Shown here: positions 57-13,454 of the stretch, piece by piece
Numbering within the stretch: position 1 is the stretch's first letter
How the letters are laid out: each line of letters starts with the position of its first letter
IMG/VR virus record: IMGVR_UViG_3300028103_000015
Strand: one strand, 5' to 3'
DNA from: a virus
Lineage: Duplodnaviria; Heunggongvirae; Uroviricota; Caudoviricetes
DNA length: 14,338 bases
Notes under the pieces: model-generated
Seen by the model: the letters and a program-made list of their open reading frames with translations, nothing else
What the model was told of the DNA's origin: nothing
The model's database searches: none
Position numbers and translations under genes: made by a program

Positions 57-923
57 ATGAATATAATATTCCAAATTAATGGCGGTATTGGCAAGGTGAT
101 TGCTGGTACCGCCATTTGTGCTTCTATCAAGGCTAAGTATCCTGATAGTAAACTTATTGTTGTCTCTGGTTATCCAGATGTATTCTTAGGTAATAAGAAT
201 GTTGACAGAGCATACGCTTTTGGACAACAGGCTTATTTCTATAAGGAATACATTGAGAATCAAGAGATTATGGTATTTGCACACGATCCATACTTGGAAG
301 CAAAGCACATTAAACAAGATGAACACCTTATTGAAACATGGTGTAATTTGTACGGTTTACCAGTAACAAAGACTGTTGGAGAGCTATTTCTTACACAGAG
401 AGAAATAGATTTCTTTAGCAAAAAATTTGTTTCTGATAAGCCTATTTTTTTGATGCAAACTAATGGTGGTGCTGAGACAGAACAGAAATACTCTTGGGCT
501 AGAGATATTCCTAGCTATATAGTAGAGAATGTTATACATGAGTTTAGAGAGAAGTATAACATTGTTCATATAAAGAGAGAAGATCAGATAGGTTATGAAG
601 GAACATTTGCTGTGTCTGATACCTTCAGAGCATTGATTGTTCTTATAAGCCTTAGTGAAAAGAGATTGTTAATGGATAGCTTTGGACAACATGCAGCTGC
701 AGCTTTGAATAAACCTTCTACAGTGTTGTGGGTTGCTAACAGTCCTAAGGTGTTTGGATATGACTTACATACAAACATTGTAGCTAACCCAGGAACAATT
801 AGTCCAGAATTAAGAAATGCCTATCTAAGTAAGTATAATATTGGAGGTGACCCTATTGAGTTTCCTTACAACAAAGAGTCTGAAATATTTAATGTAGATG
901 CTGTAATTAACTCCTTAAAATAA
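57..923 (+). CDS. GT9 (heptosyltransferase-like, GT-B fold) glycosyltransferase, 288 aa
   Basis: N-terminal IFQINGGIGKVIA followed by IKAKYPDSKLIVV. C-terminal LLMDSFGQHAAAALNKPSTVLW matches the GT9 DSG.xH.AAA..kP.v.l.g pattern. The usual catalytic Asp of GGIGD is Lys here. Confidence 0.7.
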   Translation: MNIIFQINGGIGKVIAGTAICASIKAKYPDSKLIVVSGYPDVFLGNKNVDRAYAFGQQAYFYKEYIENQEIMVFAHDPYLEAKHIKQDEHLIETWCNLYGLPVTKTVGELFLTQREIDFFSKKFVSDKPIFLMQTNGGAETEQKYSWARDIPSYIVENVIHEFREKYNIVHIKREDQIGYEGTFAVSDTFRALIVLISLSEKRLLMDSFGQHAAAALNKPSTVLWVANSPKVFGYDLHTNIVANPGTISPELRNAYLSKYNIGGDPIEFPYNKESEIFNVDAVINSLK

Positions 924-929
924 ACCAAC

Positions 930-1751
930 ATGGAAAAGATATTCTATCAAAGCTCATTGCCTAGAGCAGGAAGTACATTATTACAAAACATACTAGCTCA
1001 AAATCCTGATATATACGCTACACCTACAAGTGGTGTGTTAGAACTTATATTTGGTGCACGTGCTAACTATACAAACTCAGCAGAGTTTAAAGCTCAAGAT
1101 CCTGAGTTAATGAAAACAGGATGGCAAGCATTTGCTAAAGCTGGAATGGATGCATTCTACAATGCTGTTACAGATAAAAAATATGTGATAGATAAGTCTC
1201 GTGGATGGGGTATTCACTATGATTTCTTACAGTTTGTACAAGGTGGTGAACCTAAAATCATTTGCATGGTTAGAGACCTACGTGATGTATTTGCTTCTAT
1301 GGAGAACAACTTCAGAAAGCATCCTGAGAAGCAATCAGACATTTTGGATTGGTCTAAAGGTCAAGGTACTACTGTACCAAAGCGTATTGATATCTGGTCA
1401 CAGAATCCTCCTGTAGGACTAGCTATTGAAAGACTAGCTGAGATATTTAGACTAGGTATTAATACTAAAATATTATTCATTAAATTTGAAGACCTATGTC
1501 TCTATCCAGAAACAGAGATGACAAGGATATATCAATACCTTGGTATACCACACTACCACCATGATTTTGATAACATTGAGCAAATTACTAAGGAGGATGA
1601 TGAAGTGTATGGAGCATTTGGTGATCATGTCATTAGAACAAAGCTAGAGCCTGTTCCTTCTAGAGCAAAAGCATTGTTAGGGAAAGATGTAGTTGATTGG
1701 ATATACAACAACTACAAATGGTTTTATGACTATTTTAGATATTCAAAATGA
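930..1751 (+). CDS. PAPS-dependent sulfotransferase, 273 aa
   Basis: 5'-PSB loop SSLPRAGSTLL, DKSRGW, 3'-phosphate-binding VRDLRDVFAS, then KFEDL...TRIYQYLGI. Confidence 0.88.
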   Translation: MEKIFYQSSLPRAGSTLLQNILAQNPDIYATPTSGVLELIFGARANYTNSAEFKAQDPELMKTGWQAFAKAGMDAFYNAVTDKKYVIDKSRGWGIHYDFLQFVQGGEPKIICMVRDLRDVFASMENNFRKHPEKQSDILDWSKGQGTTVPKRIDIWSQNPPVGLAIERLAEIFRLGINTKILFIKFEDLCLYPETEMTRIYQYLGIPHYHHDFDNIEQITKEDDEVYGAFGDHVIRTKLEPVPSRAKALLGKDVVDWIYNNYKWFYDYFRYSK

Positions 1752-2191
1752 TTATAGTGTTATTTGGACAGCCTAATTGTGGAAAGTCCACATTGGCTGA
1801 TGCGCTTATAAAGGAAAGGTTTACTATTGTAAACATTGATGGAGACAAGCTCAGAGAGATATTTGTGAACAAAGATTACAGCAGAGAGGGGAGAATCAAG
1901 AATCTGAACAGGGCTAGTGATATTGCTACGTTCATGAGCACTATTGGGGATGACATCATCCTATCTCTCGTATATCCATATAAGGAAGCTAGAGACTACC
2001 TCAACAGCTTGTGTGACTCTGTCTATTGGGTTTATTTGACATATGATGAGCCTAGAGGCAGGGAATCATTTCATGTAAAGGATTTTGAAGAGCCTGGAGA
2101 TGATGAACGTGTTCTTCGTCTGAACACTTCTACAACATCCATAGAGGACTGTATAACTAAAATAATGACACATGCAAAACTTCTTGGCTAG
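1748..2191 (+). CDS. cysC: Adenylylsulfate (APS) kinase-like P-loop kinase, compact form, 147 aa
   Basis: P-loop GQPNCGKST, IDGDKLRE, DYSREGRIKNLNRA (cf. LDGDxxR...FSxxDRxENIRR). ATGA overlap with the sulfotransferase stop. Confidence 0.78.
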   Translation: MIIVLFGQPNCGKSTLADALIKERFTIVNIDGDKLREIFVNKDYSREGRIKNLNRASDIATFMSTIGDDIILSLVYPYKEARDYLNSLCDSVYWVYLTYDEPRGRESFHVKDFEEPGDDERVLRLNTSTTSIEDCITKIMTHAKLLG

Positions 2192-2570
2192 ATCAGCAGG
2201 ACCCACTTCTTCCAATGACAAGAAATATTCTATGTTTATAGGAAGATGGCAACCCTGGCACGCTGGACACAGATGGTTAATTGACCAGAGACTCAATGAA
2301 GGAAAGAATGTCCTCCTCTGTATAAGAGATGTAGAACCAGATGAGAAGAATCCTTGGACCGCACATCAAGTGATGTTAAACTTATTCGATGAACTTAAAG
2401 ACTTGGTTGAATCAGGAAGAGTTAGGGTTATTACTATACCTGATATTGAATCTATTAATATTGGTAGGGGTGTTGGTTATGATGTCATAGAACACGTACC
2501 CCCTCAGGAGATACATGACATATCTGCTACAAAAATCCGTGAGCAAATGAAAGTAGAAGGTAAGCTATGA
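2172..2570 (+). CDS. Small HxGH-superfamily (cytidyltransferase-like) nucleotidyltransferase, 132 aa; candidate sulfate adenylyltransferase or NMN adenylyltransferase-like
   Basis: FIGRWQPWHAGH and C-terminal ISATKIRE motifs. Overlaps cysC by 20 nt. An alternative start at MFIGRW is possible. Confidence 0.75.
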   Translation: MQNFLARSAGPTSSNDKKYSMFIGRWQPWHAGHRWLIDQRLNEGKNVLLCIRDVEPDEKNPWTAHQVMLNLFDELKDLVESGRVRVITIPDIESINIGRGVGYDVIEHVPPQEIHDISATKIREQMKVEGKL

Positions 2571-2779
2571 CTGTAAGCAAGAAAAGACATATAGCCAAAA
2601 CAATCAGCTACAGGATTGTCAGCACACTCATTGGGTTTGGTATTATGTGGCTAGTGACAGGAAGTGTGAAAATAGGAGCTGCATTTGGTGTAGCTGAGCT
2701 AGTGTACAAGCCTATACAATATTACCTACATGAGCGTATTTGGTATAAATGGATTAGATATGGACTGAAGAAAGACTAA
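2567..2779 (+). CDS. DUF2061-family small membrane protein, 70 aa
   Basis: KRHIAKTISYRIVST...TGS..IG..E...K...YYLHERIW pattern. ATGA overlap with the upstream gene. Confidence 0.75.
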   Translation: MTVSKKRHIAKTISYRIVSTLIGFGIMWLVTGSVKIGAAFGVAELVYKPIQYYLHERIWYKWIRYGLKKD

Positions 2780-3569
2780 GCATTGCTTTGTATTCTTCTA
2801 GCCCTTTCTCCAAATTGTATTTAGCTTCCCAACCAGGCATAAACAAATCAGCCTTGGTAAACATCTGATAGTTGTCAGGCATTTCAAACTTGAACTTGTA
2901 TTTGAATGGTATATCCATTATCTCTAGAACATTCTCAAACGTTCTGGGCTCTCCTGTTCCTACATCAAACCATCCTCCTTTGAATTCATTGTAATGCTGC
3001 CAGGCATACAAATTTGCATCTACAACATCCTTTATATACACAAAGTCTCTCACAGGTTGTCCTGGAAAGAGCATCACTTCTTCTCCAAGCTGATGTTTCT
3101 TATAAGATTGATGAGCAATAGAAGCCATGTTTCCTTTGTGCATTTCTCCTGGTCCATACACATTGAAATAACGTAGGGCCACTCCCTTGCTCTTTATTAC
3201 AAACTCCTCTCCCAGAAACTTACTCCATGCATAGAGTGTTTCAGGACTTCCCTTTGTTCCATATATAGCAGCTGATGAACTATATATAATGGGAATGCCT
3301 CTGTGCTGACACCAGCTAGCAATGATGTTAGTGGAATGTACATTGAGCATAAGCATCTCATTGATGTCCTTGTTCTGTGTATCTGAACAAGCACCTACAT
3401 GAAACACCACTTCTGGGTTCATGTCTACAAGATATTCTATAAGTCTATCCTGCCATCTGGCTCTATCAAATATCCATTTCTCAAGACCCTTTACAGTGTG
3501 CCCCTGTCTTTCAAGTTCTGTCTGTAAAGCTTTGCCAATAAATCCGTTGTTACCTGTTACGCAGACCAT
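2754..3569 (-). CDS. hldD: ADP-L-glycero-D-manno-heptose 6-epimerase (extended SDR), 271 aa
   Basis: VTGNNGFIG, FHVGACSDT, YSSSAAIYG, YAWSK, LRYFNVYGPGEMHKGNMAS, RDFVYIKDV and YQMFTKADL together are the HldD/RfaD signature set. Start moved to the ATG at 3569 (MVCVTG). Confidence 0.85.
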   Translation of the reverse strand: MVCVTGNNGFIGKALQTELERQGHTVKGLEKWIFDRARWQDRLIEYLVDMNPEVVFHVGACSDTQNKDINEMLMLNVHSTNIIASWCQHRGIPIIYSSSAAIYGTKGSPETLYAWSKFLGEEFVIKSKGVALRYFNVYGPGEMHKGNMASIAHQSYKKHQLGEEVMLFPGQPVRDFVYIKDVVDANLYAWQHYNEFKGGWFDVGTGEPRTFENVLEIMDIPFKYKFKFEMPDNYQMFTKADLFMPGWEAKYNLEKGLEEYKAMLSLSSVHI

Positions 3570-4210
3570 ATGTGTATTATTATTTCTGTATAATATGCTA
3601 GGAATTCTTCTGACCAAACTCCTGCTGTGATGTCCACACCATCCAAGGAATACACCTTGAAATTTACATCATGTAAATATTCATCTCTAAACTTCTTGAA
3701 TTTTTGTTTCAGAAGAAGATTGCTCAAATGCCATTCTCCAGCTATCTTCTTCATATTGCTCAGTATCCATGGTTTGTTTTCTAGGGTGAATATGTCATAC
3801 TCCCCACCCTCACAATCCATCTTAAGGAAGTCTATCCTACCAATATTGTAATCTTCAATCACCTGCTTAAAGGTGGTGCAATACGTAGATTCCCCCTGAT
3901 CATCAAAGACAAACTCACCATCAAACTTACCTACATGTCCTGATATAGCTTTGTTGATACATGTAACAGGAGCGTGTCTTGTATTATACACCAGTGTCTT
4001 AAACTCTGAATAACTAGGCTCAAAACAGAACACGTGCTTTGGATGCTTATCTAGGATGGAATAGGTGAATATACCTATACTTGCTCCAATATCAAACACC
4101 ACATCACCCTCTTCTACGGTGAAGCATTTCTCATATATCCTATCTACAAATGTTTCTCTCTTTACTGTCTCTATAAATATGGCGTCTGATGTTCCCCAAT
4201 TAAATTCCAT
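3557..4210 (-). CDS. FkbM-family SAM-dependent methyltransferase, 217 aa
   Basis: VVFDIGASIGIFT, VFCFEPS, IDFLKMDCEGGEYDIF. Confidence 0.85.
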   Translation of the reverse strand: MEFNWGTSDAIFIETVKRETFVDRIYEKCFTVEEGDVVFDIGASIGIFTYSILDKHPKHVFCFEPSYSEFKTLVYNTRHAPVTCINKAISGHVGKFDGEFVFDDQGESTYCTTFKQVIEDYNIGRIDFLKMDCEGGEYDIFTLENKPWILSNMKKIAGEWHLSNLLLKQKFKKFRDEYLHDVNFKVYSLDGVDITAGVWSEEFLAYYTEIIIHIWSA

Positions 4211-7200
4211 GATTGTATTTTTTTAATTACGTCTTCAGATTTAATAGATGTCTGACATTCCCATTGTCTGTCTGTTCCTTTATGCACAGGACACCAGTTC
4301 CAATCTCCTGCATCAAATCTGTATTCAGCTTTGTTCCAGCATCCATGACATACATTCTCATTAGTAATTCTAATACAGCTAAACTCATGGTCAGCAGCTG
4401 TAAAGTTACTAATCATTACCACTTGTTTATTCAGAGCCCAAGCTAACCAGCTTAGCCCACTGGATAGTCCTATAAAGAACTCACTGTGATGGATAACATT
4501 CATGGTGTTCTCCATAGATGTATCTTCAAGCTGTTCACAATTGTCAAAAGGATTCTTCTCCTTGGACACATTAACTATCTTATATCCATTCTCATGTAAG
4601 AAGTTGATGGTGAGCTGCCAGTCTTCCTTCTGCCAAAACTTACATCCAGCCGTTGAATTAGTGGCTATTGTAACATATCTACCATATGAATTGTTACCAG
4701 GTGTAAAGGCTAAACGTGGTCTAATCTCTTGAAAATCAAGACCTAAGATGTTGGTTGCTGTCTGTTGGAGGGGAATAGTATTACACAAAGCTGGCTCCTT
4801 ATTACCATCATAGAACCAACCCACACTGTACATACCAAGGATGTTACCTACACCTGTTCCTGGTTCTACAAACTCAAGCTCTGGATAGACACTCTCAAAT
4901 AGGAAGTTCTTAAATGTGCTCACTGTTACATGGCAATTGTGCTTCCTCTTGAACTCAAGTACATATGGCATCCATGCAATTGTGTCTCCTAGTGATTTGC
5001 TATCCATAGCTATATAGACACGCTGGCCCTCATAATTGAGTGTATACTCATAGTATATACTTTCATCCTTCCACACCTTGATGGTCCATTTGGTAAACCA
5101 TCTCCTGTTGAGCTTCACCCAGTGATTCACCTTTATCTTGTTCTCATAGTGACACACACCCTGCTCATCATAAAATCTGACAGTGAAGGTGCTTTTGGAA
5201 TTACCTGTTATCTCTAGGAATGGCTCGTGTATAAATGTGTGGGTGATATTAATCAGTTCTTTGTCAGGCTGTATGGGTCTATTCATCACCTCCTGATACA
5301 GATCAATATGCTTCTGTGCGAAATCAAGCTTCTGTCCTTCAGGAATATCGTAGCTCACATCTGTATCTAACAGCTGGGTGAGCTGTTCTTTCATCTTTTC
5401 AGGCTTCAGATCTGTAATATACTGAGTGAACATGTCTCCATACTGAGGAAGATTTCTTGCCAGGATTGGCAGTCCATATCCTATAGCTTCTCTAATCACC
5501 AGTGGATTGCATTCAAATGTACTGTTAAACAGGAACACATCTGCAGCTGCCATAAACCTACCCACATCATCACGCTCTCCCCATACATGTACATTAGGTG
5601 GTATGTCCTTCATAATGGGTTCCCAGTAGTGCTGGAAGTTACCAGCCTGATTACCTACAAAGTGGAATTGTACATCTGGCATTTGTCTAGCCAGCTCTAC
5701 AGCTTCTCCTTGGTTCTTACCAGCAGTCCATAGTCCTACATTAAGCACATGTTTACCAGGTCCTAGATCTATGGGCTCAGATTCTTTCTTCACGATAGGA
5801 AACTCAATCACCTCCTTTCTAGAAGGCATATTAGCAAACGTCTTTAGATGGTGTGGTGTACAGAACGCATATGCATCTGGATGATAGCGCTTCTCTAAGT
5901 CTGGCTTGAACACAATGTTGTGACATGTTTCAATCATCCTCCAGGTTCTATTTGGACTGTACAGCGCTTGTCTCACCTCTTCTGGCCAGTTGTTCCAGCC
6001 ATCTTCCACCATCTCATCCACATGCACTATATCTACAGCATGTCTTTTGATGATATCAATCACCTCCATCTTATTCTCTCCCAAGGTGTAGAAGTGGTGG
6101 GCTATTTCCTTTATCTGATTCTTCTGGACAACAAAGTGATCACTGTGGTTGGAATACTCCACAACAATAATCTTAGATTTGGAATAGGCCAACAGATCTG
6201 CTATTCTCTCTAAAAGGAAGGCAGGCATTCCACCTGTCGATAGATGTGGTGCCAGGAATAATATCTTAAGCTGATTCTTCTGGCGCTCTAACATTCTGTA
6301 CATAGTGACAGCATCCTTTTCTCCGTGATAGAATAGTAACTGGTCTACATCTGCAGGCACAGCTACAAAATGTGCTAGGTGCTGCTTCTTAGTTCTGAAT
6401 GTGACATTATTCACTGTGTTCAAGGATCCATTCATGTATATGTATGGTAGTCCATCTAATGCCTTGTACTTCCACAGAAGCACGTTAGCTATAGTTTCCT
6501 CATGATAGGGAGCATAGTATTGTGGATTCTGTAACACCTTGGGATGGTTACACATCCACCACCAACTGTCAAGGAATTCTTGACAGTATTCACCAGCTAC
6601 AAAATATCCTGTTTGTCTGTATTTATCTCTGATGTATTGATCTACACCAAACAGCTCACAAGCTGGATGTTCAAGAGTAGTGGATAGGTCATCTCTACTA
6701 TCAGCCCCACCTCTTCCATTGCTGATCATCCATTCATATATTCCCTCTGTAAAATACGGATAGGCACTCTTCACTGGGAAATAGTCAAATATTCTGTCTA
6801 CATACTTGGTAGCCACACTATCACTATCCACATAGGCCACTGTTTTAGCATGCTTTAACGCTTCTTTAACAATTAGTGGGCGCTGGATGAGGATGTTGTA
6901 AATGTCTGGATTAGCTCTGTCTATATACTTCTGCTGAGGAAGATCCTTGGTTTTACAATCCCAACGGAATGTAGCAGCTCCCTTTATATCCACATCTGAG
7001 TTGAGCATATAAACCATAACAGGTAGACTGCTAAAGGTTCTAAGAGAATCTACGCACGCCTGCACAGTGTCCTTATAGCTCTCTGTAGCATATAAGACAT
7101 ATGCTTTTTCCCATCTAATGTCCTGATTTACATAGTATCCATACCACTGGTTGTCATATAGCTTCTCCAGTCCTGGGTAACGCTCTAGCATCACCTCTGG

Positions 7201-7623
7201 TGTTAGATCTGCCTGGTGGTGGGTTTCATACTCATTTCCATACTCTGCTCCATCCTGAGCCATCATATAGGGCACAGCTACAAGAAACCTCTTGTCCATC
7301 AGGTCAAAGTCTGTAAGCAGGTTTTTAGCTGTGCCTGAGGGTAGGTGTTCTAGAATATCCCCTAAGATGATAAAGTCATAGGGTCTAACATCAAAGGTGA
7401 CAATATCCCCTACATAAACATTATCATATTTAGCTCTCAGATTGAACTGATCTACATATGGAGCCCATATCTCTACAGCATCCATCCTATATCCTAAATT
7501 CCTTAGCAAATCAGAATATGTTCCCTGTCCAGGACCTACATCTAGAATGCGTGTTGATAGGGGAATATTGTCTATAAACCACTGCTTTATTTCAGGCTTG
7601 AAGTAGGTGTAACTGTTTGGCAT
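4171..7623 (-). CDS. Multidomain protein, 1150 aa: class I SAM methyltransferase + GT-A glycosyltransferase + GT4 glycosyltransferase + Aah/TibC-type (BAHT) heptosyltransferase
   Basis: ILDVGPGQGTY / ILGDILEHL (MTase); VAYVDSDSV and EETIANVLLW (GT-A); ILFLAPHLSTGGM, KNQ, ADVFLFNSTFECNPLVIREAIGYGLPI (GT4); SLGDTIAWMPY, FFIGLSSGLSWLAWA, VCHGCWN, DWNWCPVHKGTDRQWEC (BAHT with four iron-finger Cys). Start set at the ATG at 7623, downstream of a minus-strand promoter. Confidence 0.85.
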   Translation of the reverse strand: MPNSYTYFKPEIKQWFIDNIPLSTRILDVGPGQGTYSDLLRNLGYRMDAVEIWAPYVDQFNLRAKYDNVYVGDIVTFDVRPYDFIILGDILEHLPSGTAKNLLTDFDLMDKRFLVAVPYMMAQDGAEYGNEYETHHQADLTPEVMLERYPGLEKLYDNQWYGYYVNQDIRWEKAYVLYATESYKDTVQACVDSLRTFSSLPVMVYMLNSDVDIKGAATFRWDCKTKDLPQQKYIDRANPDIYNILIQRPLIVKEALKHAKTVAYVDSDSVATKYVDRIFDYFPVKSAYPYFTEGIYEWMISNGRGGADSRDDLSTTLEHPACELFGVDQYIRDKYRQTGYFVAGEYCQEFLDSWWWMCNHPKVLQNPQYYAPYHEETIANVLLWKYKALDGLPYIYMNGSLNTVNNVTFRTKKQHLAHFVAVPADVDQLLFYHGEKDAVTMYRMLERQKNQLKILFLAPHLSTGGMPAFLLERIADLLAYSKSKIIVVEYSNHSDHFVVQKNQIKEIAHHFYTLGENKMEVIDIIKRHAVDIVHVDEMVEDGWNNWPEEVRQALYSPNRTWRMIETCHNIVFKPDLEKRYHPDAYAFCTPHHLKTFANMPSRKEVIEFPIVKKESEPIDLGPGKHVLNVGLWTAGKNQGEAVELARQMPDVQFHFVGNQAGNFQHYWEPIMKDIPPNVHVWGERDDVGRFMAAADVFLFNSTFECNPLVIREAIGYGLPILARNLPQYGDMFTQYITDLKPEKMKEQLTQLLDTDVSYDIPEGQKLDFAQKHIDLYQEVMNRPIQPDKELINITHTFIHEPFLEITGNSKSTFTVRFYDEQGVCHYENKIKVNHWVKLNRRWFTKWTIKVWKDESIYYEYTLNYEGQRVYIAMDSKSLGDTIAWMPYVLEFKRKHNCHVTVSTFKNFLFESVYPELEFVEPGTGVGNILGMYSVGWFYDGNKEPALCNTIPLQQTATNILGLDFQEIRPRLAFTPGNNSYGRYVTIATNSTAGCKFWQKEDWQLTINFLHENGYKIVNVSKEKNPFDNCEQLEDTSMENTMNVIHHSEFFIGLSSGLSWLAWALNKQVVMISNFTAADHEFSCIRITNENVCHGCWNKAEYRFDAGDWNWCPVHKGTDRQWECQTSIKSEDVIKKIQSWNLIGEHQTPYL

Positions 7624-7643
7624 AACTGATTGGCTTTCTGTTA

Positions 7644-7675
7644 CAAAGATAGAAAAAAGATTTGGTAGTTTCAAA
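7644..7675 (-). promoter_or_regulatory. Bacteroidota sigma70-type promoter driving the fusion GT-FkbM-hldD operon
   Basis: The minus strand reads TTTG (7675-7672), N20, TATCTTTG (7651-7644), ending 20 nt before the ATG at 7623. Confidence 0.78.
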
Positions 7676-7692
7676 TAAATTACATAGATTTG
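7661..7692 (+). promoter_or_regulatory. Bacteroidota sigma70-type promoter driving the cupin-rfaE2-rfaE1 operon
   Basis: TTTG 7661-7664, N20, TAGATTTG 7685-7692. Overlaps the divergent promoter back to back. Confidence 0.75.
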
Positions 7693-7698
7693 CCCCAC

Positions 7699-7717
7699 AA
7701 GTGGAGTGTATCCACTT
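7699..7717. repeat. Inverted repeat / 5' leader hairpin
   Basis: AAGTGGA (7699-7705) GTGTA TCCACTT (7711-7717): a perfect 7-bp stem with a 5-nt loop at the predicted start site of the + promoter. Confidence 0.6.
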
Positions 7718-7728
7718 TATGCTATATT

Positions 7729-8076
7729 ATGCACGAACTACATAAAGTTGAGAAGGGTTGGGGTCACGAACTCTGGATCCATAACTCCCCAGAATACTGC
7801 GGAAAACTGCTGGTTTTCAAGGCTGGCAAGAAGTTCTCAATGCACTTCCACAAGATAAAGCAGGAGAGCTGGTATGTAAGCAAAGGGTCCTTCCAATATA
7901 CATGGGTGGACATGTCTACAGGCACCCTCTATACAGACTATCTGAAGGAAGGAGATGCTCTAACCATTATGCCCTACCACCCTCACCAGCTGGAAGCTCT
8001 AGAAGATGGCATCATATTTGAGGTGAGTACACAACACTTTGATGAAGATAGCTACAGACTATGGAAGGGGGACTAA
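7729..8076 (+). CDS. Cupin-fold protein (sugar isomerase-like), 115 aa
   Basis: KGWGHELWI...YCGKLL, metal motif 1 SMHFHKIKQESWYV, motif 2 IMPYHPHQL, then EVST. Start moved from the TTG at 7690 to the ATG at 7729. Confidence 0.75.
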   Translation: MHELHKVEKGWGHELWIHNSPEYCGKLLVFKAGKKFSMHFHKIKQESWYVSKGSFQYTWVDMSTGTLYTDYLKEGDALTIMPYHPHQLEALEDGIIFEVSTQHFDEDSYRLWKGD

Positions 8077-8471
8077 GGGTATGGGTGAATGGAGCATTTG
8101 ATGTCCTGCATATAGGGCATATTCAACTCCTTAAAAGAGCTAAAGAGTTTGGTAGTGTGAGAGTGGGTGTTGATAGTGACGCACGTGTTGCAGAATTAAA
8201 AGGTGATAGTAGACCATTTAACAAGCTGTCTGACAGAATAGATTTCCTGAAGAGCATTAGGTATGTGGATGAGATAGTATCATATGATTCTGAGGAAGAG
8301 CTCACCAACCAAATCAAACTTTATGAACCAGACATCATGGTGATAGGATCTGACTACATGGGAAAAAGAATAGTGGGGGCTGAATATATAACACAGATAG
8401 TATTCTTTGACAGAATAGAACATAAATCAACTACATCAATATTAGGGTATGAAGCTGGTGGTAATAGGTGA
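8061..8471 (+). CDS. rfaE2: D-glycero-beta-D-manno-heptose 1-phosphate nucleotidyltransferase-like (HldE/RfaE domain II), 136 aa
   Basis: NGAFDVLHIGH, VGVDSDARV..LKGDSRP, PDIMVIGSDY, KSTTSI. Adjacent to a RfaE domain I gene. Confidence 0.8.
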   Translation: MEGGLRVWVNGAFDVLHIGHIQLLKRAKEFGSVRVGVDSDARVAELKGDSRPFNKLSDRIDFLKSIRYVDEIVSYDSEEELTNQIKLYEPDIMVIGSDYMGKRIVGAEYITQIVFFDRIEHKSTTSILGYEAGGNR

Positions 8472-9189
8472 TGTCTGCAAGGATGTCTTCATCTATGGAG
8501 ACTGTAAACGCTTAAGTCCAGAAGCACCTGTACCTGTATTTAATCCAGTGGAAACAATAGAGAACTCAGGAATGGCTGGTAACGTGGTAGCCAATCTAAG
8601 TGCTATCAACCCCAACCTGCAGATAAATTTCCATCACAACTTTGAGAACATTACCAAAACCAGGTATGTAGATAAGAAGACCAATCACCTTTTCCTAAGA
8701 GTGGACGATGAGCCAAAGGTGAATAGAATATTCCTCACAGCTCAGCTTATTGAGGATGTAGAAACTGCAGATGCTGTGATTGTGAGTGACTATGACAAGG
8801 GATATCTAACAGAAGATGACCTGCAATATATAGCTGTTAAAGCTAAGTGGTCCATCTTAGACAGCAAGAAGCATTTAAAACCACACACCATATCAAACTA
8901 TTCATTCATCAAACTGAATGAATCTGAATACAATAAAAACAAACAGTCTCTAATTTACATGAGAGACAAAGTGATAGTGACACTTAGTTCCAAAGGAGCA
9001 ATGCATAAAGATGTTACATACAGCTCCCCAAGTCCAAAAGAAACTATAGATGTAAGTGGTGCAGGAGATACGTTCGTTGCAGCATTTACAATTAAATACT
9101 TGGAAACCAAAGACATATCTACGTCTATTGAATATGCCAATCTTATGTCATCTATTGTGGTGGGTAAGAGAGGTGTTGTAACCCCATAA
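8449..9189 (+). CDS. rfaE1: D-glycero-D-manno-heptose 7-phosphate kinase-like PfkB kinase (HldE/RfaE domain I), 246 aa
   Basis: VIGDVCKD..YG..RLSPEAPVPV, GMAGNVVAN, TKTRY, SDYDKGYL, DVSGAGDTFVAA, AN...IVVGKRG. Confidence 0.87.
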   Translation: MKLVVIGDVCKDVFIYGDCKRLSPEAPVPVFNPVETIENSGMAGNVVANLSAINPNLQINFHHNFENITKTRYVDKKTNHLFLRVDDEPKVNRIFLTAQLIEDVETADAVIVSDYDKGYLTEDDLQYIAVKAKWSILDSKKHLKPHTISNYSFIKLNESEYNKNKQSLIYMRDKVIVTLSSKGAMHKDVTYSSPSPKETIDVSGAGDTFVAAFTIKYLETKDISTSIEYANLMSSIVVGKRGVVTP

Positions 9190-9204: not shown

Positions 9205-9246
9205 ATAGCACACTATTCCTGTTCGGAGGGAAGGGTGTGCTATTTT
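9205..9246 (+). terminator. Probable intrinsic terminator ending the heptose operon
   Basis: ATAGCACAC (9205-9213) pairs with GTGTGCTAT (9235-9243). An inner TTCCT/AGGGA stem surrounds a GTTCGG loop, and a short T run follows. It lies 15 nt after the rfaE1 stop. Confidence 0.65.
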
Positions 9247-9261
9247 CCATTATGTAATGAA

Positions 9262-9549
9262 ATGAAAGAGAACGAGTCTGTAACAGCAATCAAATCTTGG
9301 GTGTTCCCAGGTCTCATCACAGTGCTAGCAGCCATTATTTGGAGTGATGTACAAGAGATCAAGTCTGATGTAAAGGCCCTAATGGCCCAGTCAAACATTG
9401 ATAAAACTAGGATTGATAACCTAGAACGAATAATATACCAACAAAACGATCCCATAAAAACCTTCTATCCAGGTTCAGAAAGAACCTTGGCAATATTGCC
9501 AAACAACAATTTTGAATTTAAAAAGAAGGAAAATGAAAAAGTTCTTTAG
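9262..9549 (+). CDS. Single-TM protein with coiled coil (holin/antiholin-like), 95 aa
   Basis: WVFPGLITVLAAIIW TM segment then EIKSDVKALMAQ..RIDNLE heptads. Start moved to the ATG at 9262 because 9235 lies inside the terminator. Confidence 0.55.
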   Translation: MKENESVTAIKSWVFPGLITVLAAIIWSDVQEIKSDVKALMAQSNIDKTRIDNLERIIYQQNDPIKTFYPGSERTLAILPNNNFEFKKKENEKVL

Positions 9550-9787
9550 TGACTTATTCAATGATGACAACAAGATTAATGAAAAAAGCTTCATTGGTTT
9601 TCTTGCATTTGTAATGATGACAGTGTTTGCTGTGTCAGACATCGTTACAGGATCTCTTGGTAAGGATCTGGTTATTAATGACTTCATTTTTAACGCGTTC
9701 CTCTACCTCACTCTTGGATGTTTTGGTATAGCATCCATAGACAAATACATTAACAAAAAAGGTGATAGTGATGAACAAGCTTCTTAG
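9533..9787 (+). CDS. Two-TM holin candidate, 84 aa
   Basis: Two hydrophobic helices (FIGFLAFVMMTVFAVS; FIFNAFLYLTLGCFGIAS) and a charged C-terminus, in the lysis cassette. Start at the ATG at 9533. Confidence 0.6.
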   Translation: MKKFFSDLFNDDNKINEKSFIGFLAFVMMTVFAVSDIVTGSLGKDLVINDFIFNAFLYLTLGCFGIASIDKYINKKGDSDEQAS

Positions 9788-10364
9788 TGTAATTATCGTA
9801 GTGCTTATAGGCTTTTTAGTATTCAAAGGAAATGGATGTGGAGGGGATGTCCCCAAAGCTGACACAGTGGTGGTGCATGACACATCATGGCAAGTGCATG
9901 ATAGCCTCATCATTAAGAAGATGAAGGTGAAAGAAGTGATTCATGACACACTGCCTCCTGAGTATATAGCTGATACAAACTACCCAAAGCTGAAGGCACA
10001 ATACGAAGAATTGGCTAAAGCTTTCCTGGCTAAGAAGATATACGCTGATACACTAAAACTTGACACTCTAGGATATATAGCTGTAGCTGACACTGTACAG
10101 AAGAATGAACTTCAGAATAGATCGTATGACTACAAATATAAAATCCCAACAATCACCAACACTGTCACCATAACAAAACAAGACCCACCTAAAGGTGCTT
10201 TATATGTAGGAGGCGGTGTGTCTGGAGAGAAAACCAATGGAATAAATTCTGTAAGAGGAGGGTTGCTTTACAAAACCAAGAAGAACACCATGTTTGGTGT
10301 ACATACTGGCTTTGCAAACAACCAGCTGGTTTATGGAATAGACGCTTATTGGAAACTTAAATAA
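9771..10364 (+). CDS. N-anchored envelope protein with four C-terminal amphipathic beta strands (spanin candidate), 197 aa
   Basis: N-terminal TM/signal LLSVIIVVLIGFLVF with a possible weak lipobox GNGC, a DT-rich periplasmic part, and Gly/aromatic-rich strands ending YGIDAYWKLK. Confidence 0.55.
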   Translation: MNKLLSVIIVVLIGFLVFKGNGCGGDVPKADTVVVHDTSWQVHDSLIIKKMKVKEVIHDTLPPEYIADTNYPKLKAQYEELAKAFLAKKIYADTLKLDTLGYIAVADTVQKNELQNRSYDYKYKIPTITNTVTITKQDPPKGALYVGGGVSGEKTNGINSVRGGLLYKTKKNTMFGVHTGFANNQLVYGIDAYWKLK

Positions 10365-10371
10365 ACTATAA

Positions 10372-10500
10372 ATGGAAAAATTGATTGAGCTCTTAAAGAG
10401 TCTGTTCAGCAAGGGTGGCCTTGTTGAGAAGGTTAAAACCATCAAACAATTAGACAAAGAAGTTAAGAAAATAATCCCTGCTAAAAAAAAGAAGAAATGA
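10372..10500 (+). CDS. 42-aa cationic amphipathic peptide (not in the ORF track)
   Basis: MEKLIELLKSLFSKGGLVEKVKTIKQLDKEVKKIIPAKKKKK. It fills the gap after the upstream gene, and its TGA overlaps the endolysin ATG (ATGA at 10497-10500). Confidence 0.65.
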   Translation: MEKLIELLKSLFSKGGLVEKVKTIKQLDKEVKKIIPAKKKKK

Positions 10501-11096
10501 ACCTAGAGAAACTGAAAGGACATATACCAGATGATGTGATTGCACAAATCCCTGAGGTGGGAGAGAAGTTTCAAATCAATTCTCCTCTCAGACTAGCCCA
10601 TTTCCTTGCACAGTGTGGACATGAGAGTGGTGGGTTTAAATTCAAATCAGAGAACCTCAACTACTCAGCTGAAATCCTCAGAAAGGTGTTCCCTAAATAC
10701 TTCCCAGACATTGTTGTAGCTAAGCAATACGAGCGTAAGCCAGAAGCTATTGCTAGCAGAGTGTACGGAGGGCGTATGGGTAATGGTCCTGAGGCTTCAA
10801 AAGAGGGGTTCAAGTACAAGGGTCGTGGCTTCATCCAACTCACAGGGAAGCAGAACTACACTGCATTTGATGCTACAGTGCCTGAAGATATACTAGCTAA
10901 TCCAGACTTGGTAGCCACTAAATACCCCCTACTTTCAGCAGCCTGGTTCTGGAATAGCAGGAAGCTGAACAGCATAGCTGATCAGGGAGCAACGGATGAA
11001 GTGGTTACCAAGATTACCAAGCTGGTAAACGGTGGCACCATAGGACTAGCAGATAGGATTAAACACTTCAAAGAATATCATAAACTGTTAGGATAA
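10497..11096 (+). CDS. Glycoside hydrolase family 19 endolysin, 199 aa
   Basis: RLAHFLAQCGHESGGF, ENLNYS, YGGRMGN, YKGRGFIQLTGKQNY, SAAWFW, TKLVNGGTIGLADR. Confidence 0.92.
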   Translation: MNLEKLKGHIPDDVIAQIPEVGEKFQINSPLRLAHFLAQCGHESGGFKFKSENLNYSAEILRKVFPKYFPDIVVAKQYERKPEAIASRVYGGRMGNGPEASKEGFKYKGRGFIQLTGKQNYTAFDATVPEDILANPDLVATKYPLLSAAWFWNSRKLNSIADQGATDEVVTKITKLVNGGTIGLADRIKHFKEYHKLLG

Positions 11097-11479
11097 TGGC
11101 AAACGCTCAACCTAAACCCAAACCTAAAAGATCTAGGAGATCTGGACTTAAGAAAGCCAAGCTTATTAAGAAAAACATTGATGTGATCTATAATTTATGG
11201 ACACAGATGAACGCTCAACAGCTTACAATCATCATCATTATTATAGGGTTGTTTATAAGCAGTTGTGCTAATGTTAAATATGTTTATGTTGACCCCAAAG
11301 ACTCAGTGGTGAGAAGACAGAGAGTAGTATATGACAACTATATAGCACCTAGTCCTTTTTATGATCCGTTCTTTAGGCCCTATTTCTGGGGACCTAGACA
11401 GATTATAATTGTACCTAGAAACCAGCCCCAAAGACCAGGATTTGGTCCATTGCCCCCAACACCTAAACCCCGTAGATAA
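11096..11479 (+). CDS. Proline-rich lipoprotein (o-spanin-like candidate) with a basic N-terminal extension; alternative start at 11207
   Basis: TAATG overlap with the endolysin stop. Hydrophobic IIIIIIGLF then lipobox ISSC (Cys codon 11264-11266), and a Pro/Arg-rich C-terminus. Confidence 0.6.
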   Translation: MANAQPKPKPKRSRRSGLKKAKLIKKNIDVIYNLWTQMNAQQLTIIIIIIGLFISSCANVKYVYVDPKDSVVRRQRVVYDNYIAPSPFYDPFFRPYFWGPRQIIIVPRNQPQRPGFGPLPPTPKPRR

Positions 11480-11480
11480 A

Positions 11481-11786
11481 ATGGCTACATCGAAAAAAGG
11501 AGTGAGCGTATCAGCCAATCCTCTTCCAATATCCTTTAAAGACTTTGCAAAGAATCCTGTAGTGGGCACCCTGTTTCTGGTGCTCATTGCTATTTCCTAC
11601 CTGTATATAGACATTCGTTCTACATTCCAAGATCAAGCTAGAAAGCAAGATGCTCGCATTGAGAAGGTGGAAGGAAGACTAGACCTTGTACAGGATGCCC
11701 TAAGAAGAAGTGACAGTGCTAAGGCTGTAACAAGTACACAGCTTAGGACCCTTCAAGAACTAGGAGCCATCAAAAAAGTTAACTGA
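11481..11786 (+). CDS. Single-TM coiled-coil protein (i-spanin-like candidate), 101 aa
   Basis: VVGTLFLVLIAISYLYI TM segment then QARKQDARIEKVEGRLDLVQDAL heptads. The ATG at 11481 immediately follows the upstream stop. Confidence 0.6.
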   Translation: MATSKKGVSVSANPLPISFKDFAKNPVVGTLFLVLIAISYLYIDIRSTFQDQARKQDARIEKVEGRLDLVQDALRRSDSAKAVTSTQLRTLQELGAIKKVN

Positions 11787-12806: not shown

Positions 12807-13454
12807 ATGGCCATACCATCCCGTCAGATAGGCTGGGGCACACAGGACAACCTGCTGTGGCAGATTGCAAAGCAACTGGAGGGAGCCTCTTGTCAGCTCT
12901 GTACGTTGAATGATAACATAGCCACTATTACAGGCACCTCTGGTACAAGTGGGACTAGTGGTGTTAGCGGATCTAATGGTACATCAGGTACCAGTGGGCT
13001 TTCTAGTTTTAAATACGGATCTTTCTATAGCACTGTGGATCAATCACTTGCAAAGGATGCTATAGGACCTTTTACATTTAACAACACAGACCTAAGTAAT
13101 GGTGTTAGTGTGGTTTCTAGTTCAAGAATTACACTGGCTAACGCTGGTAAATACAACATCCAGTTTAGTGCACAGTTTCATCACATAGGTGGTGGAGGAT
13201 CTGGGGAAACAGTGAACATATGGCTTGCTAAAAACGGCTCAGATATAGCTGACTCAAACACAAGACTCACTATCACCTCTAGTACTAAGTATAGTGTGGC
13301 AGCCTGGAACTTCTTTGTAGATGCTTCAGGAGGAGACTATTATGAAATCATCTGGTCTACAGATAATGCCAATATAAAAATAGAACATGAGGCTGCTGGT
13401 GTGCATCCTGCTATACCATCAATAATTTTAACAGTCAATCAAATAGGAATATAA
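12807..13454 (+). CDS. Collagen-like (Gly-Thr-Ser) fibre/decoration protein with a C-terminal beta-sandwich (BclA-CTD/C1q-like), 215 aa
   Basis: N-terminal module with CQLC, seven Gly-X-Y triplets, then YGSFYST...FTFNNTD.SNG...ITL.NAG.YNIQFSAQ...IWL.KNG.DI..SN...GDYYEI, the pattern seen in BclA/C1q-type trimeric heads. Confidence 0.62.
   Translation: MAIPSRQIGWGTQDNLLWQIAKQLEGASCQLCTLNDNIATITGTSGTSGTSGVSGSNGTSGTSGLSSFKYGSFYSTVDQSLAKDAIGPFTFNNTDLSNGVSVVSSSRITLANAGKYNIQFSAQFHHIGGGGSGETVNIWLAKNGSDIADSNTRLTITSSTKYSVAAWNFFVDASGGDYYEIIWSTDNANIKIEHEAAGVHPAIPSIILTVNQIGI
12933..12998 (+). repeat. Gly-Thr-Ser tripeptide repeat (GTSGTSGTSGVSGSNGTSGTSG)
   Basis: 22 codons with Gly every third residue. 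Synonymous codons vary between units (ggc acc tct / ggt aca agt / ggg act agt). Confidence 0.9.

What the first reader, a model, noticed from the sequence alone, without database searches (positions are those of the whole stretch)
4171..5260. Intact Aah/TibC-type iron-finger heptosyltransferase domain in a phage context
The C-terminal ~360 aa show the BAHT layout: a beta-rich N-part, SLGDT with the catalytic Asp, FFIGLSSGLSWLAWA, and four Cys (CHGC at 4339-4350, WCP Cys at 4291-4293, WEC Cys at 4255-4257) matching the Fe-binding finger. Characterised BAHTs glycosylate bacterial autotransporter adhesins such as AIDA-I and TibA. No autotransporter is in this window, so the acceptor must be something else.
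Basis: partly seen in the sequence, partly recalled or inferred. Interest (0 to 1): 0.8.

Follow-up and report, generated by a model that had tools for sequence, protein, structure and literature searches.

The report
Phage TibC-like heptose transferase domain
An uncultured river phage carries, as the last part of a four-enzyme protein, an intact relative of the E. coli adhesin-glycosylating enzymes TibC/Aah; it belongs to a separate, unstudied branch that sits beside proline-free collagen-like fibre genes, so the phage most likely coats its own tail fibres with heptose, though nobody has tested this.

Summary
The last ~350 residues of the gene at 4171-7623 (minus strand) match the Aah/TibC model TIGR04414 at 259.6 bits (cut-off 200). 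They match TibC in the PDB at E 1e-45, and the model superposes on TibC at TM 0.9.

The setting is a phage. Close relatives are 90-115 kb crAss-related genomes with capsid, portal and terminase genes and no autotransporter.

The domain differs from classical BAHTs:
- The beta-hairpin "thumb" that builds the TibC dodecamer is deleted.
- Arg286 is Thr.
- Pro300 is Ser, as in Aah, which fits the HldD-like epimerase gene nearby.

In my tree, 88 phage and metagenome-assembled sequences separate from five autotransporter-linked BAHTs.

This branch is linked to (Gly-Ser/Thr-Ser/Thr)n collagen-like genes. These are phage tail fibres, or secreted proteins directly next to the enzyme gene in Methylobacter and other bacteria. 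Such fibres are the most likely acceptors, but this is inferred from gene linkage only.

I found no paper describing this. Earlier follow-ups in this scan reached the same reading on other DNA.

The parts
4171..7623 (-). Four-domain glycan-assembly gene. Domain order is SAM methyltransferase, GT-A, GT4, BAHT; 1150 aa counted from the ATG. The open frame extends to a GTG at 7698.
   Evidence: Homologues begin MPNSYTYF..., which corresponds to residue 26.
4171..5253 (-). TibC/Aah-type (BAHT) heptosyltransferase domain, residues 816-1175. It comprises an N-terminal beta-barrel (about 5029-5253), a GT-B-like catalytic core and an iron finger.
   Evidence: TIGR04414 259.6 bits; TibC E 1e-45; model pLDDT 93.3; TM 0.9 to 4rap/4rb4.
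4984..4986 (-). Asp905 codon, the equivalent of TibC catalytic base Asp110 (motif SLGDT).
   Evidence: Alignment; invariant in 62/62 homologues. Role taken from PMC4358343.
4639..4653 (-). Thr1016 and Lys1020, the equivalents of the TibC beta-phosphate ligands Thr226 and Lys230.
   Evidence: invariant.
4522..4566 (-). Remnant of the beta-hairpin thumb (SKEKNPFDNCEQLED). It is about 10 residues shorter than in TibC/Aah, has no Phe265/Val266-type tip, and the model shows no strand here.
   Evidence: Gaps in the TibC alignment. This region is 18-20 residues here, 25 in an intermediate class and 29 in autotransporter-linked BAHTs. DSSP on the model shows no strand between domain residues 229 and 246.
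4447..4506 (-). Donor-pocket positions. Thr1065 replaces TibC Arg286. Ser1079 replaces TibC Pro300 and matches Aah Ser294. Trp1084 is the equivalent of Trp305.
4255..4350 (-). Four-Cys iron-finger motif: Cys1117, Cys1120, Cys1136 and Cys1148.
   Evidence: These align with TibC Cys339/342/358/370 and are invariant in 62/62. The region is modelled at pLDDT 81-94.
5254..6228 (-). GT4-type (GT-B) glycosyltransferase domain.
   Evidence: PF13692 E 1e-10 and PF00534 E 5e-9. It lies directly in front of the BAHT domain in at least 43 of the 81 loci (window included).
6229..7113 (-). GT-A fold glycosyltransferase domain with an invariant DSD motif.
   Evidence: No Pfam match. Model pLDDT 89.6. Best PDB matches are retaining GT-A enzymes (GT6 ABO transferases, UGGT) at TM 0.45-0.53. 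Asp96/Asp98 of the domain are invariant.
7114..7623 (-). SAM-dependent methyltransferase domain.
   Evidence: PF13489 and PF08241.
2754..3617 (-). HldD-like ADP-glycero-manno-heptose 6-epimerase.
   Evidence: Best NCBIfam hit is TIGR02197 at 179 bits, below the 274.6 cut-off. PF01370.
8061..8471 (+). HldE domain II-like heptose-1-phosphate adenylyltransferase.
   Evidence: Best hit is TIGR02199 at 99 bits, below the 181.5 cut-off.
8449..9189 (+). HldE domain I-like heptose-7-phosphate kinase (PfkB family).
   Evidence: Best hit is TIGR02198 at 125 bits, below the 345 cut-off. PF00294.
3557..4210 (-). FkbM-type methyltransferase immediately downstream of the BAHT gene. In other phages this module is fused to the BAHT domain.
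   Evidence: PF05050. BAHT-FkbM fusions occur in L035-L040, L064 and L077.
12807..13454 (+). Candidate acceptor in the window: a tail-fibre protein. It has a conserved N-terminal anchor, a (Gly-Thr/Ser-Ser)8 collagen-like stretch and a variable C-terminal domain.
   Evidence: phrog_30509 'collagen like minor tail'. Alignment A2 shows the conserved anchor, the GTS repeat and the variable head. Repeat scan.

Best explanation
The last ~350 residues of the 1150-aa protein are a functional protein O-glycosyltransferase domain of the TibC/Aah (BAHT) lineage, carried by a crAss-related river phage.

Shown:
- It is homologous to TibC/Aah by sequence and by fold.
- The catalytic and iron-finger residues are intact.
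- The setting is a phage.
- It lies on a separate branch from autotransporter-linked BAHTs.
- That branch is linked in genomes to collagen-like genes.

Inferred mechanism:
1. In the infected cell, the phage's HldE-like kinase, adenylyltransferase and HldD-like epimerase top up ADP-heptose. The steps normally done by GmhA and GmhB are left to the host or to the cupin gene.
2. The domain uses Asp905 as the base to transfer heptose onto Ser (or Thr) hydroxyls of proline-free (Gly-Ser/Thr-Ser/Thr)n collagen-like stretches of the phage's tail fibres, before or during their trimerisation.
3. The fused GT4 and GT-A domains extend the heptose.
4. The methyltransferases, and possibly the neighbouring sulfotransferase, decorate the glycan. 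The result is a glycan-coated fibre.

Because the thumb that links TibC dimers into a 12-mer ring is deleted, the domain probably works as a monomer or an iron-finger-mediated dimer within the multidomain protein, and not as a ring threading a beta-helix.
For: Homology and intactness:
- TIGR04414 259.6 bits against a cut-off of 200.
- TibC E 1e-45.
- Model TM 0.9 to TibC.
- Asp110, Thr226, Lys230, Trp305 and the four Cys equivalents are invariant in 62 homologues.

Phage setting:
- GH19 endolysin and a collagen-like tail fibre lie in the window.
- The window aligns piecewise at 67-81% DNA identity with a 113.7-kb, 98%-complete IMG/VR genome that has capsid, portal, terminase and a 3086-aa fibre.
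- That genome's terminase is nearest to those of Leptolyngbya, Cellulophaga and crAss-like phages.
- No autotransporter beta-domain is found in five related genomes.

Separate branch:
- Five autotransporter-linked BAHTs split from 88 phage and metagenome-assembled sequences with SH-aLRT support of 100.
- The branch has a thumb deletion and Arg286 replaced by Thr/Val.

Acceptor linkage:
- 56 of 81 viral loci hold a Ser/Thr-rich Gly-X-Y stretch within the roughly 20-kb locus, and 27 hold one within 3 kb.
- Of 30 bacterial or MAG loci, 20 hold one and 8 hold one within 500 bp. These include the complete Methylobacter sp. chromosome (L337), where a signal-peptide-bearing GTS-collagen gene lies 41 bp upstream of the BAHT gene among housekeeping genes.
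- None of the 5 autotransporter-linked loci has such a stretch.
- In the reverse test, 11 of 46 viral contigs chosen only for a (G-T-S/T)6 pattern carry a BAHT above the cut-off. Only 1 of 42 contigs chosen for (G-P-X)6 does so. Fisher p = 0.004.
- Gene adjacency is also how classical BAHT partners are recognised. TibC modifies Ser in peptides such as NSGG (PMC4358343).

Donor:
- The best family hits of three neighbouring genes are HldE-I, HldE-II and HldD.
- Ser at the Pro300 position is the Aah state, which tolerates ADP-L,D-heptose.

Presence in RNA libraries (no DNA run was laid for comparison):
- Identical contigs occur in four riverine metatranscriptome runs. All four break at 7596-7714, the divergent intergenic region. 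This is a weak hint of real transcripts.
Against: - No biochemical data exist for any member of this branch.
- In this window the nearest GTS repeat is short (24 residues) and 5.2 kb from the gene. The giant fibre seen in relatives lies outside the window.
- Both features sit in tail and late regions and are shared by related phages, so part of the co-occurrence is by descent. My counts are not corrected for phylogeny.
- Arg286 contacts adenine in TibC, and its mutation cripples the enzyme. It is absent here, so the nucleotide, and therefore the sugar, could differ.
- The heptose-pathway genes score below their curated cut-offs.
- GmhA and GmhB are missing from five related genomes, and a 100%-complete relative carrying the same four-domain enzyme has no HldE-like kinase.
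- TibC modified Ser but not Thr, and folded collagen triple helices are poor substrates.
Confidence: 0.55

Rival explanations
1. The domain is a protein O-heptosyltransferase, but its acceptor is some other phage or host protein. Candidates are the capsid, poly-Thr or Ser/Thr-rich virion proteins, the non-collagen part of the giant fibre, or a host surface protein. The link to collagen-like genes would then only reflect a shared position in the tail-fibre region.
For: - In the window the gene is 5.2 kb from the only GTS repeat.
- The related genome has other Ser/Thr-rich structural ORFs with 31-41% Ser+Thr.
- 25 of 81 viral loci show no GTS-type repeat within the stretch held.
Against: - In free-living bacteria the pairing is immediate (8-130 bp), and no tail genes are present to explain it.
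- The reverse test is specific to GTS repeats over GPX repeats.
- Many of the negative loci are short or cut contigs.
Confidence: 0.2
2. The domain does not start a protein glycan. It adds heptose, or another sugar, to a carbohydrate or lipid acceptor. That could be a glycan begun by the GT4 or GT-A domain, or a host LPS or capsule intermediate, which would remodel the host surface.
For: - The fold is related to the LPS heptosyltransferases WaaC and WaaF (PF01075 hit; Foldseek ranks 22-30).
- It is fused to two further glycosyltransferases and a methyltransferase, so its place in the order of action is unknown.
- The thumb and Arg286, both needed for TibA heptosylation, are missing.
Against: - It scores 260 bits on the protein-acting Aah/TibC model, against 27 bits on the LPS heptosyltransferase I model.
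- TM is 0.9 to TibC and about 0.5 to WaaC.
- It keeps the N-terminal beta-barrel and the iron finger, which in TibC serve acceptor-protein handling.
- Stand-alone members of the branch sit directly beside collagen-like genes with no other transferase fused.
Confidence: 0.15
3. It is a classical BAHT captured from a bacterium, and it heptosylates a host autotransporter adhesin during infection or lysogeny.
For: It is named by the equivalog model TIGR04414. Many metagenome pipelines label the relatives 'autotransporter strand-loop-strand O-heptosyltransferase'.
Against: - It lies on a different branch from all five autotransporter-linked enzymes sampled.
- The thumb needed for the ring that encloses the beta-helix is missing.
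- No autotransporter is found in five related phage genomes.
- The nearest genome matches are small contigs binned with Bacteroidota MAGs (Sediminibacterium, Chitinophaga, Lutibacter), and the related genome's terminase is nearest to those of Leptolyngbya, Cellulophaga, Flavobacterium and crAss-like phages. From general knowledge, AIDA-type autotransporters are not typical of Bacteroidota.
Confidence: 0.03

Closest known systems
TibC (ETEC H10407; PDB 4RAP/4RB4) and Aah/AAH (DAEC 2787): bacterial autotransporter heptosyltransferases, BAHT family, TIGR04414
   Same: - Same fold from beta-barrel to iron finger (TM 0.9).
- About 28-33% identity.
- Keeps the Asp110 base, Thr226, Lys230, Trp305 and the four iron-finger Cys.
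- Has the Aah-type Ser at the position that sets stereoselectivity.
- Encoded near its presumed acceptor gene.
   Different: - It is a C-terminal domain of a 1150-aa four-enzyme protein and not a stand-alone enzyme of about 400 aa.
- The beta-hairpin thumb is deleted, so the dodecamer ring is unlikely.
- Arg286 is Thr.
- It is phage-encoded.
- There is no autotransporter. The linked repeat protein is a proline-free collagen-like fibre and not a beta-helix.
- It lies on a separate branch of my tree, split from the five autotransporter-linked enzymes sampled.
Mycobacteriophage virion glycosylation (Che8-type; Freeman et al. 2023, Cell Host Microbe, PMC10527164; seen here only as a citation)
   Same: Phage-encoded glycosyltransferases that are proposed or shown to O-glycosylate the phage's own structural proteins.
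   Different: From my recollection of that paper, those are GT-A/GT2-type enzymes acting on C-terminal tails of capsid and tail-tube proteins with hexoses. No BAHT, heptose, iron finger or collagen-like acceptor is involved.
Chlorovirus PBCV-1 A064R, a multidomain virus-encoded glycan-building enzyme (from general knowledge, not checked here)
   Same: One viral polypeptide combines several glycosyltransferase domains with a methyltransferase domain to build a glycan on a virion protein.
   Different: It is from a eukaryotic virus, builds an N-linked capsid glycan with rhamnosyltransferase domains, and is not homologous to the BAHT domain.
BclA of Bacillus anthracis, an O-glycosylated bacterial collagen-like (GXT)n protein (from general knowledge, not checked here)
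   Same: A prokaryotic collagen-like repeat with Thr in the triplet serves as a dense O-glycosylation scaffold on a surface fibre.
   Different: The sugars (rhamnose, anthrose) and the enzymes differ. The BclA repeats contain proline, and no BAHT is involved.
WaaC/WaaF LPS heptosyltransferases (GT9, PF01075)
   Same: GT-B-like fold and use of ADP-heptose. There is a weak Pfam/NCBIfam match over the C-lobe.
   Different: TM is only about 0.5. These enzymes have no beta-barrel, no iron finger and a lipid-linked sugar acceptor.

Membership tests
BAHT (Aah/TibC, TIGR04414) | Sequence match to the family model above its curated cut-off | tested here: met
   259.6 bits against a cut-off of 200, covering model positions 26-372 of 374. 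TibC is the only PDB sequence hit, E 1e-45.
BAHT (Aah/TibC, TIGR04414) | TibC protomer fold: N-terminal flattened beta-barrel plus a GT-B-like two-lobe catalytic domain | tested here: met
   AF2 model pLDDT 93.3. Foldseek TMq 0.89-0.91 and rmsd about 2 A to 4rap/4rb4 over about 367 columns.
BAHT (Aah/TibC, TIGR04414) | Catalytic base Asp110 and donor ligands Thr226, Lys230, Trp305 | tested here: met
   Asp905, Thr1016, Lys1020 and Trp1084 are aligned to them and are invariant in 62 homologues. Roles taken from PMC4358343.
BAHT (Aah/TibC, TIGR04414) | Arg286 contacting adenine N1 (ADP specificity) | tested here: not met
   Thr1065 sits at this position. In the phage branch the position is T/V/I in most sequences. 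Arg is kept in all five autotransporter-linked enzymes.
BAHT (Aah/TibC, TIGR04414) | Four-Cys iron-finger motif (Cys339/342/358/370) | tested here: met
   All four Cys are aligned and invariant. Only the sequence motif was tested.
BAHT (Aah/TibC, TIGR04414) | Iron actually bound | not testable with these tools
   Needs metal analysis of purified protein.
BAHT (Aah/TibC, TIGR04414) | [quoted passage not shown] | tested here: not met
   About 10 residues are deleted. The region is 19 residues here and 29 in the classical enzymes, which carry the G[FMV]VWNHIP motif. The model shows no hairpin strands there.
BAHT (Aah/TibC, TIGR04414) | Ring-shaped dodecamer | not testable with these tools
   Not modelled. 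Loss of the thumb and fusion to about 800 N-terminal residues argue against it, but this is inference only.
BAHT (Aah/TibC, TIGR04414) | Gene paired with an autotransporter (AIDA/TibA-type) acceptor | tested here: not met
   There is no autotransporter in the window. PF03797 is absent from five related phage genomes. Three of the five classical plasmid loci fetched for comparison are followed by an annotated AIDA-I or AIDA-repeat gene, and the other two by an 'outer membrane protein' and an ESPR-domain gene.
BAHT (Aah/TibC, TIGR04414) | Transfers heptose from ADP-heptose to Ser of a protein | not testable with these tools
   Only supported indirectly, by HldE-like and HldD-like neighbour genes and conserved donor ligands.
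Collagen-linked BAHT branch (proposed here; unnamed) | Groups with phage and metagenome-assembled sequences, apart from autotransporter-linked enzymes | tested here: met
   The split has SH-aLRT support of 100. The window sits in a starred 11-row all-phage set.
Collagen-linked BAHT branch (proposed here; unnamed) | A (Gly-Ser/Thr-Ser/Thr)n collagen-like gene nearby | tested here: met
   The fibre at 12807-13454 has a 24-residue GTS stretch 5.2 kb away. In the related 113.7-kb genome a 3086-aa Ser/Thr-rich fibre, with collagen-like tail-fibre PHROG matches, begins about 1 kb beyond the glycosylation gene cluster.

The most novel reading that the evidence does not exclude
This window represents a large, unstudied sister branch of the autotransporter heptosyltransferases. 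The branch is specialised for O-glycosylating proline-free (Gly-Ser/Thr-Ser/Thr)n collagen-like repeats. Many aquatic phages would use it to coat their tail fibres, and free-living bacteria such as methanotrophs would use it on secreted collagen-like proteins. Here it is built into a single four-enzyme assembly line with the phage's own ADP-L,D-heptose supply. If true, this would be the first heptose-based virion glycosylation and a new enzyme-substrate pair for prokaryotic collagens.
Probability: 0.5. Interest if true: 0.8.

Novelty: new variant of a known kind. Interest (0 to 1): 0.65.

Why it matters
BAHTs are known only as virulence-associated enzymes that heptosylate autotransporter adhesins in Proteobacteria. 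Four consequences would follow from a thumbless branch tied to collagen-like fibres in phages and environmental bacteria:
- It would widen the family's substrate range.
- It would give a testable case of phage virion glycosylation outside the mycobacteriophages.
- It would explain why many aquatic phage fibres are made of Ser/Thr-only collagen triplets.
- It would offer a compact enzyme for site-dense O-heptosylation of designed repeat proteins.

It also corrects current annotation. The homologue in the cultured Microcystis phage Mel-JY01 is labelled only 'methyltransferase FkbM'. Metagenome pipelines call the relatives 'autotransporter' enzymes where no autotransporter exists.

Tried and rejected
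- **GenBank phages by DNA:** megablast of the gene found no match. A protein-level search was needed. It found only three uncultured huge phages and Mel-JY01.
- **Whole genome:** none is held for the window, so the phage's other genes were read from a relative with about 67-81% DNA identity.
- **Enzyme-fibre complex:** Complex prediction of the BAHT domain with the window's fibre gave no verdict (score 0.00). This counts neither for nor against binding.
- **Autotransporter search:** PF03797 in five related phage genomes gave nothing.
- **GmhA and GmhB:** searches in the same five genomes gave nothing.
- **Literature:** searches for phage with O-heptosyltransferase, BAHT or ADP-heptose, and for collagen-like with heptosyltransferase, found no relevant paper.
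- **DNA-modifying glycosyltransferase:** I considered and rejected this role. The fold, the beta-barrel and the iron finger are those of the protein-acting TibC, and stand-alone bacterial members sit beside secreted collagen-like genes.
- **Decayed remnant:** I considered and rejected this. The frame is open and every catalytic residue is invariant.
- **RNA depth:** the depth of RNA contigs was not used to rank expression.
Full report
**Observation**

The window holds one long minus-strand frame, 4171-7698, of 1175 codons. Relatives begin at the Met of residue 26 (MPNSYTYF...), so the gene is most likely 4171-7623, or 1150 aa.

Pfam and NCBIfam split the protein into four parts:
- a SAM methyltransferase (about residues 26-195);
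- an unassigned stretch (196-490);
- a GT4 glycosyltransferase (about 491-815);
- a C-terminal part (835-1162) that matches TIGR04414, 'autotransporter strand-loop-strand O-heptosyltransferase', at 259.6 bits against a curated cut-off of 200.

The only solved structures matched by sequence are TibC 4rap/4rb4, at E 1.3e-45. CHGC lies at 4339-4350, and the other two Cys lie at 4291-4293 and 4255-4257.

**Structure**

An AlphaFold2 model of residues 816-1175 was built on 46 homologues. It is confident, with pLDDT 93.3 and pTM 0.90. It superposes on every TibC chain at TMq 0.85-0.91 (most 0.89-0.91), typically about 2 A rmsd, over about 367 columns, N-terminal beta-barrel included. The next folds are the LPS heptosyltransferases WaaC/WaaF, at TM of about 0.5.

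**Residue-by-residue comparison with TibC**

I used the roles given in Yao et al. 2014 (PMC4358343).

| TibC residue | Role in TibC | Here | In 62 distinct phage homologues |
|---|---|---|---|
| Asp110 | catalytic base | Asp905 | invariant |
| Thr226 | beta-phosphate ligand | Thr1016 | invariant |
| Lys230 | beta-phosphate ligand | Lys1020 | invariant |
| Trp305 | heptose O4 ligand | Trp1084 | invariant |
| Cys339/342/358/370 | iron finger | Cys1117/1120/1136/1148 | invariant |
| Arg286 | contacts adenine; R286A abolishes or largely diminishes activity | Thr1065 | Thr/Val/Ile in most |
| Pro300 | selectivity for ADP-D,D-heptose | Ser1079 | Ser in 54 of 62 |

There are three differences from TibC:
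1. Arg286 is replaced by Thr.
2. Pro300 is replaced by Ser. This is the Aah state, which also accepts ADP-L,D-heptose.
3. The beta-hairpin thumb is cut by about 10 residues. In TibC its Phe265/Val266 tip joins dimers into the dodecamer ring, and it is described as highly conserved in BAHTs. The region is 18-20 residues in the window's class, 25 in an intermediate 'GYMGN' class and 29 in five autotransporter-linked enzymes. The model has no strand there.

**Phage context**

- The window also encodes a GH19 endolysin and a collagen-like tail fibre.
- 151 IMG/VR contigs encode relatives of the domain at 41-83% identity.
- One of them, 113.7 kb and 98% complete, aligns with the window piecewise at about 67-81% DNA identity. 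It has a major head protein, portal, terminase, giant virion proteins and a 3086-aa Ser/Thr-rich fibre that begins about 1 kb beyond the glycosylation gene cluster.
- Its terminase is nearest to those of Leptolyngbya, Cellulophaga, Flavobacterium and crAss-like phages.
- The closest hits in bacterial genome bins are small contigs assigned to Sediminibacterium, Chitinophaga and Lutibacter. These are hints of a Bacteroidota host.
- No autotransporter beta-domain is found in five related genomes.
- The exact DNA occurs in many riverine metagenomes. It also occurs in riverine metatranscriptome libraries, where contigs from four runs all break at 7596-7714, the divergent intergenic region. This is a weak hint of transcription.

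**How the domain is deployed**

Across the viral loci the domain occurs in several arrangements:
- alone (350-400 aa);
- as GT4-BAHT;
- as GT-A-GT4-BAHT;
- as the four-domain form seen here;
- as BAHT-FkbM;
- behind other N-terminal modules.

The unassigned domain of this protein models as a GT-A fold with an invariant DSD motif. It is nearest to retaining GT6, GT8 and UGGT-type enzymes.

In the representative library of 1.84 billion proteins, 1432 clusters match at E up to 0.001 and 705 at E up to 1e-30. Most of the top hits are long fusion proteins.

Among deposited phage genomes, only three uncultured huge phages and the cultured Microcystis phage Mel-JY01 carry the domain. In Mel-JY01 the 1226-aa protein is annotated only as 'methyltransferase FkbM'.

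**Relation to classical BAHTs**

I built a maximum-likelihood tree of 93 domains. The five autotransporter-linked enzymes (E. coli, Salmonella, Paraburkholderia, Gluconobacter) stand on one side of a fully supported branch. All 88 phage and metagenome-assembled sequences stand on the other. The sample of classical enzymes is small, and the root was placed by assumption on that group.

**Acceptor**

I scanned the flanks of the viral loci before consulting earlier notes.
- 48 of the 81 loci (window included) hold an ORF with at least six Gly-X-Y triplets, mostly Ser/Thr-rich G-T-S or G-S-S repeats. Some of these ORFs lie only 13-67 bp from the BAHT gene.
- A stricter six-frame count finds Ser/Thr-rich stretches in 56 of 81 viral loci and in 20 of 30 bacterial or MAG loci. 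Eight of the bacterial ones lie within 500 bp. None of the five classical loci has one.
- In the complete Methylobacter sp. chromosome (L337), and in the Methylobacter luteus scaffold and MAG contigs of Methylomicrobium and Arenicellales, the BAHT gene sits directly beside small collagen-like genes (PF01391).
- In the Methylobacter sp. locus the collagen-like gene carries a signal peptide, and the surrounding genes are housekeeping genes.
- In the reverse test, 11 of 46 viral contigs chosen only for a (G-T-S/T)6 DNA pattern carry a BAHT above the cut-off. Only 1 of 42 chosen for (G-P-X)6 does so. Fisher p = 0.004.

Adjacency is the same criterion by which BAHT-autotransporter pairs were defined. 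TibC modifies Ser in short peptides such as ...NSGG....

In this window the candidate is the fibre at 12807-13454. It has a conserved N-terminal anchor, eight GTS-type triplets and a variable head.

**Caveats on the acceptor**

- The counts are not corrected for shared ancestry.
- Both features lie in tail regions.
- The window's own repeat is short and 5.2 kb away.
- A complex prediction gave no verdict.

**Donor**

- Three neighbouring genes have HldE kinase, HldE adenylyltransferase and HldD epimerase as their best family matches. All three score below the curated cut-offs.
- Only five of the 81 loci carry these genes nearby.
- GmhA and GmhB are absent from five related genomes, and a complete relative has no HldE-like kinase.
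- The phage therefore at most boosts a host pathway. The loss of Arg286 leaves the nucleotide open.
- The Ser at the Pro300 position fits use of the L,D-epimer made by an HldD-type enzyme.

**Verdict**

The domain is a true BAHT homologue, but it fails three family features: the thumb, Arg286 and the autotransporter partner. It belongs to a distinct branch that is genomically tied to proline-free collagen-like repeats.

The most likely function is O-heptosylation of the phage's fibres as the first or an early step of a glycan built by the same polypeptide. I put this at about 0.55.

I found no paper on this. Other follow-ups in this scan reached the same reading on other genomes. That is not independent evidence.

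Noticed in passing
window 930-2570: A sulfotransferase (PF13469), an APS-kinase-like P-loop protein and a small HxGH nucleotidyltransferase are chained next to the sugar genes. This suggests the glycan may be sulfated. The same trio recurs in many related loci.
   Followed up: partly
window 57-923: This 288-aa ORF beside the sulfation genes has no Pfam or NCBIfam match. Its only hit is the unknown-function family phrog_8954. It is conserved in relatives at 34-64% identity.
   Followed up: partly
window 7596-7714: Contigs from four riverine metatranscriptome runs all end or begin here, at the divergent intergenic region between the transferase gene and the cupin/HldE operon. Each contig is identical to the window. 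This is a weak hint of two divergent transcripts.
   Followed up: partly
window 7690-8076: A small cupin protein leads the HldE-like operon. GmhA and GmhB are absent from five related phage genomes, so the cupin may supply an isomerase step.
   Followed up: partly
L337 4956-7140 (Methylobacter sp. chromosome NZ_CP197401.1): A signal-peptide-bearing GTN/GTS collagen-like protein (281 aa) lies 41 bp upstream of a 432-aa stand-alone BAHT. The neighbours are Hsp70, a glycolate-oxidase-like gene and a MiaB-like gene. This is a bacterial, non-prophage version of the pair.
   Followed up: partly
L082 4750-8430 (Microcystis phage Mel-JY01, PP395634.1): A cultured cyanophage encodes a 1226-aa protein annotated 'methyltransferase FkbM'. 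Its last ~350 residues are a BAHT domain, 39% identical to the window's. It lies near a 'structural protein' gene and a 640-aa 'cytidylyltransferase like protein' gene.
   Followed up: partly
LR756501.1 580141-581190; LR756504.1 457181-458242: Uncultured huge phages of 636-735 kb also carry BAHT-type domains, at 33-41% identity.
   Followed up: no
G002 18490-27750 (L089 990-10250, minus strand): In the 113.7-kb relative, a 3086-aa tail-fibre protein with 31% Ser+Thr and collagen-like repeats begins about 1 kb beyond the gene cluster. The equivalent gene would lie just outside the left end of the window.
   Followed up: partly
window 9235-12440: Several small membrane, lipoprotein and coiled-coil ORFs with no family matches surround the GH19 endolysin (10497-11096). 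This is probably an extended lysis cassette.
   Followed up: no
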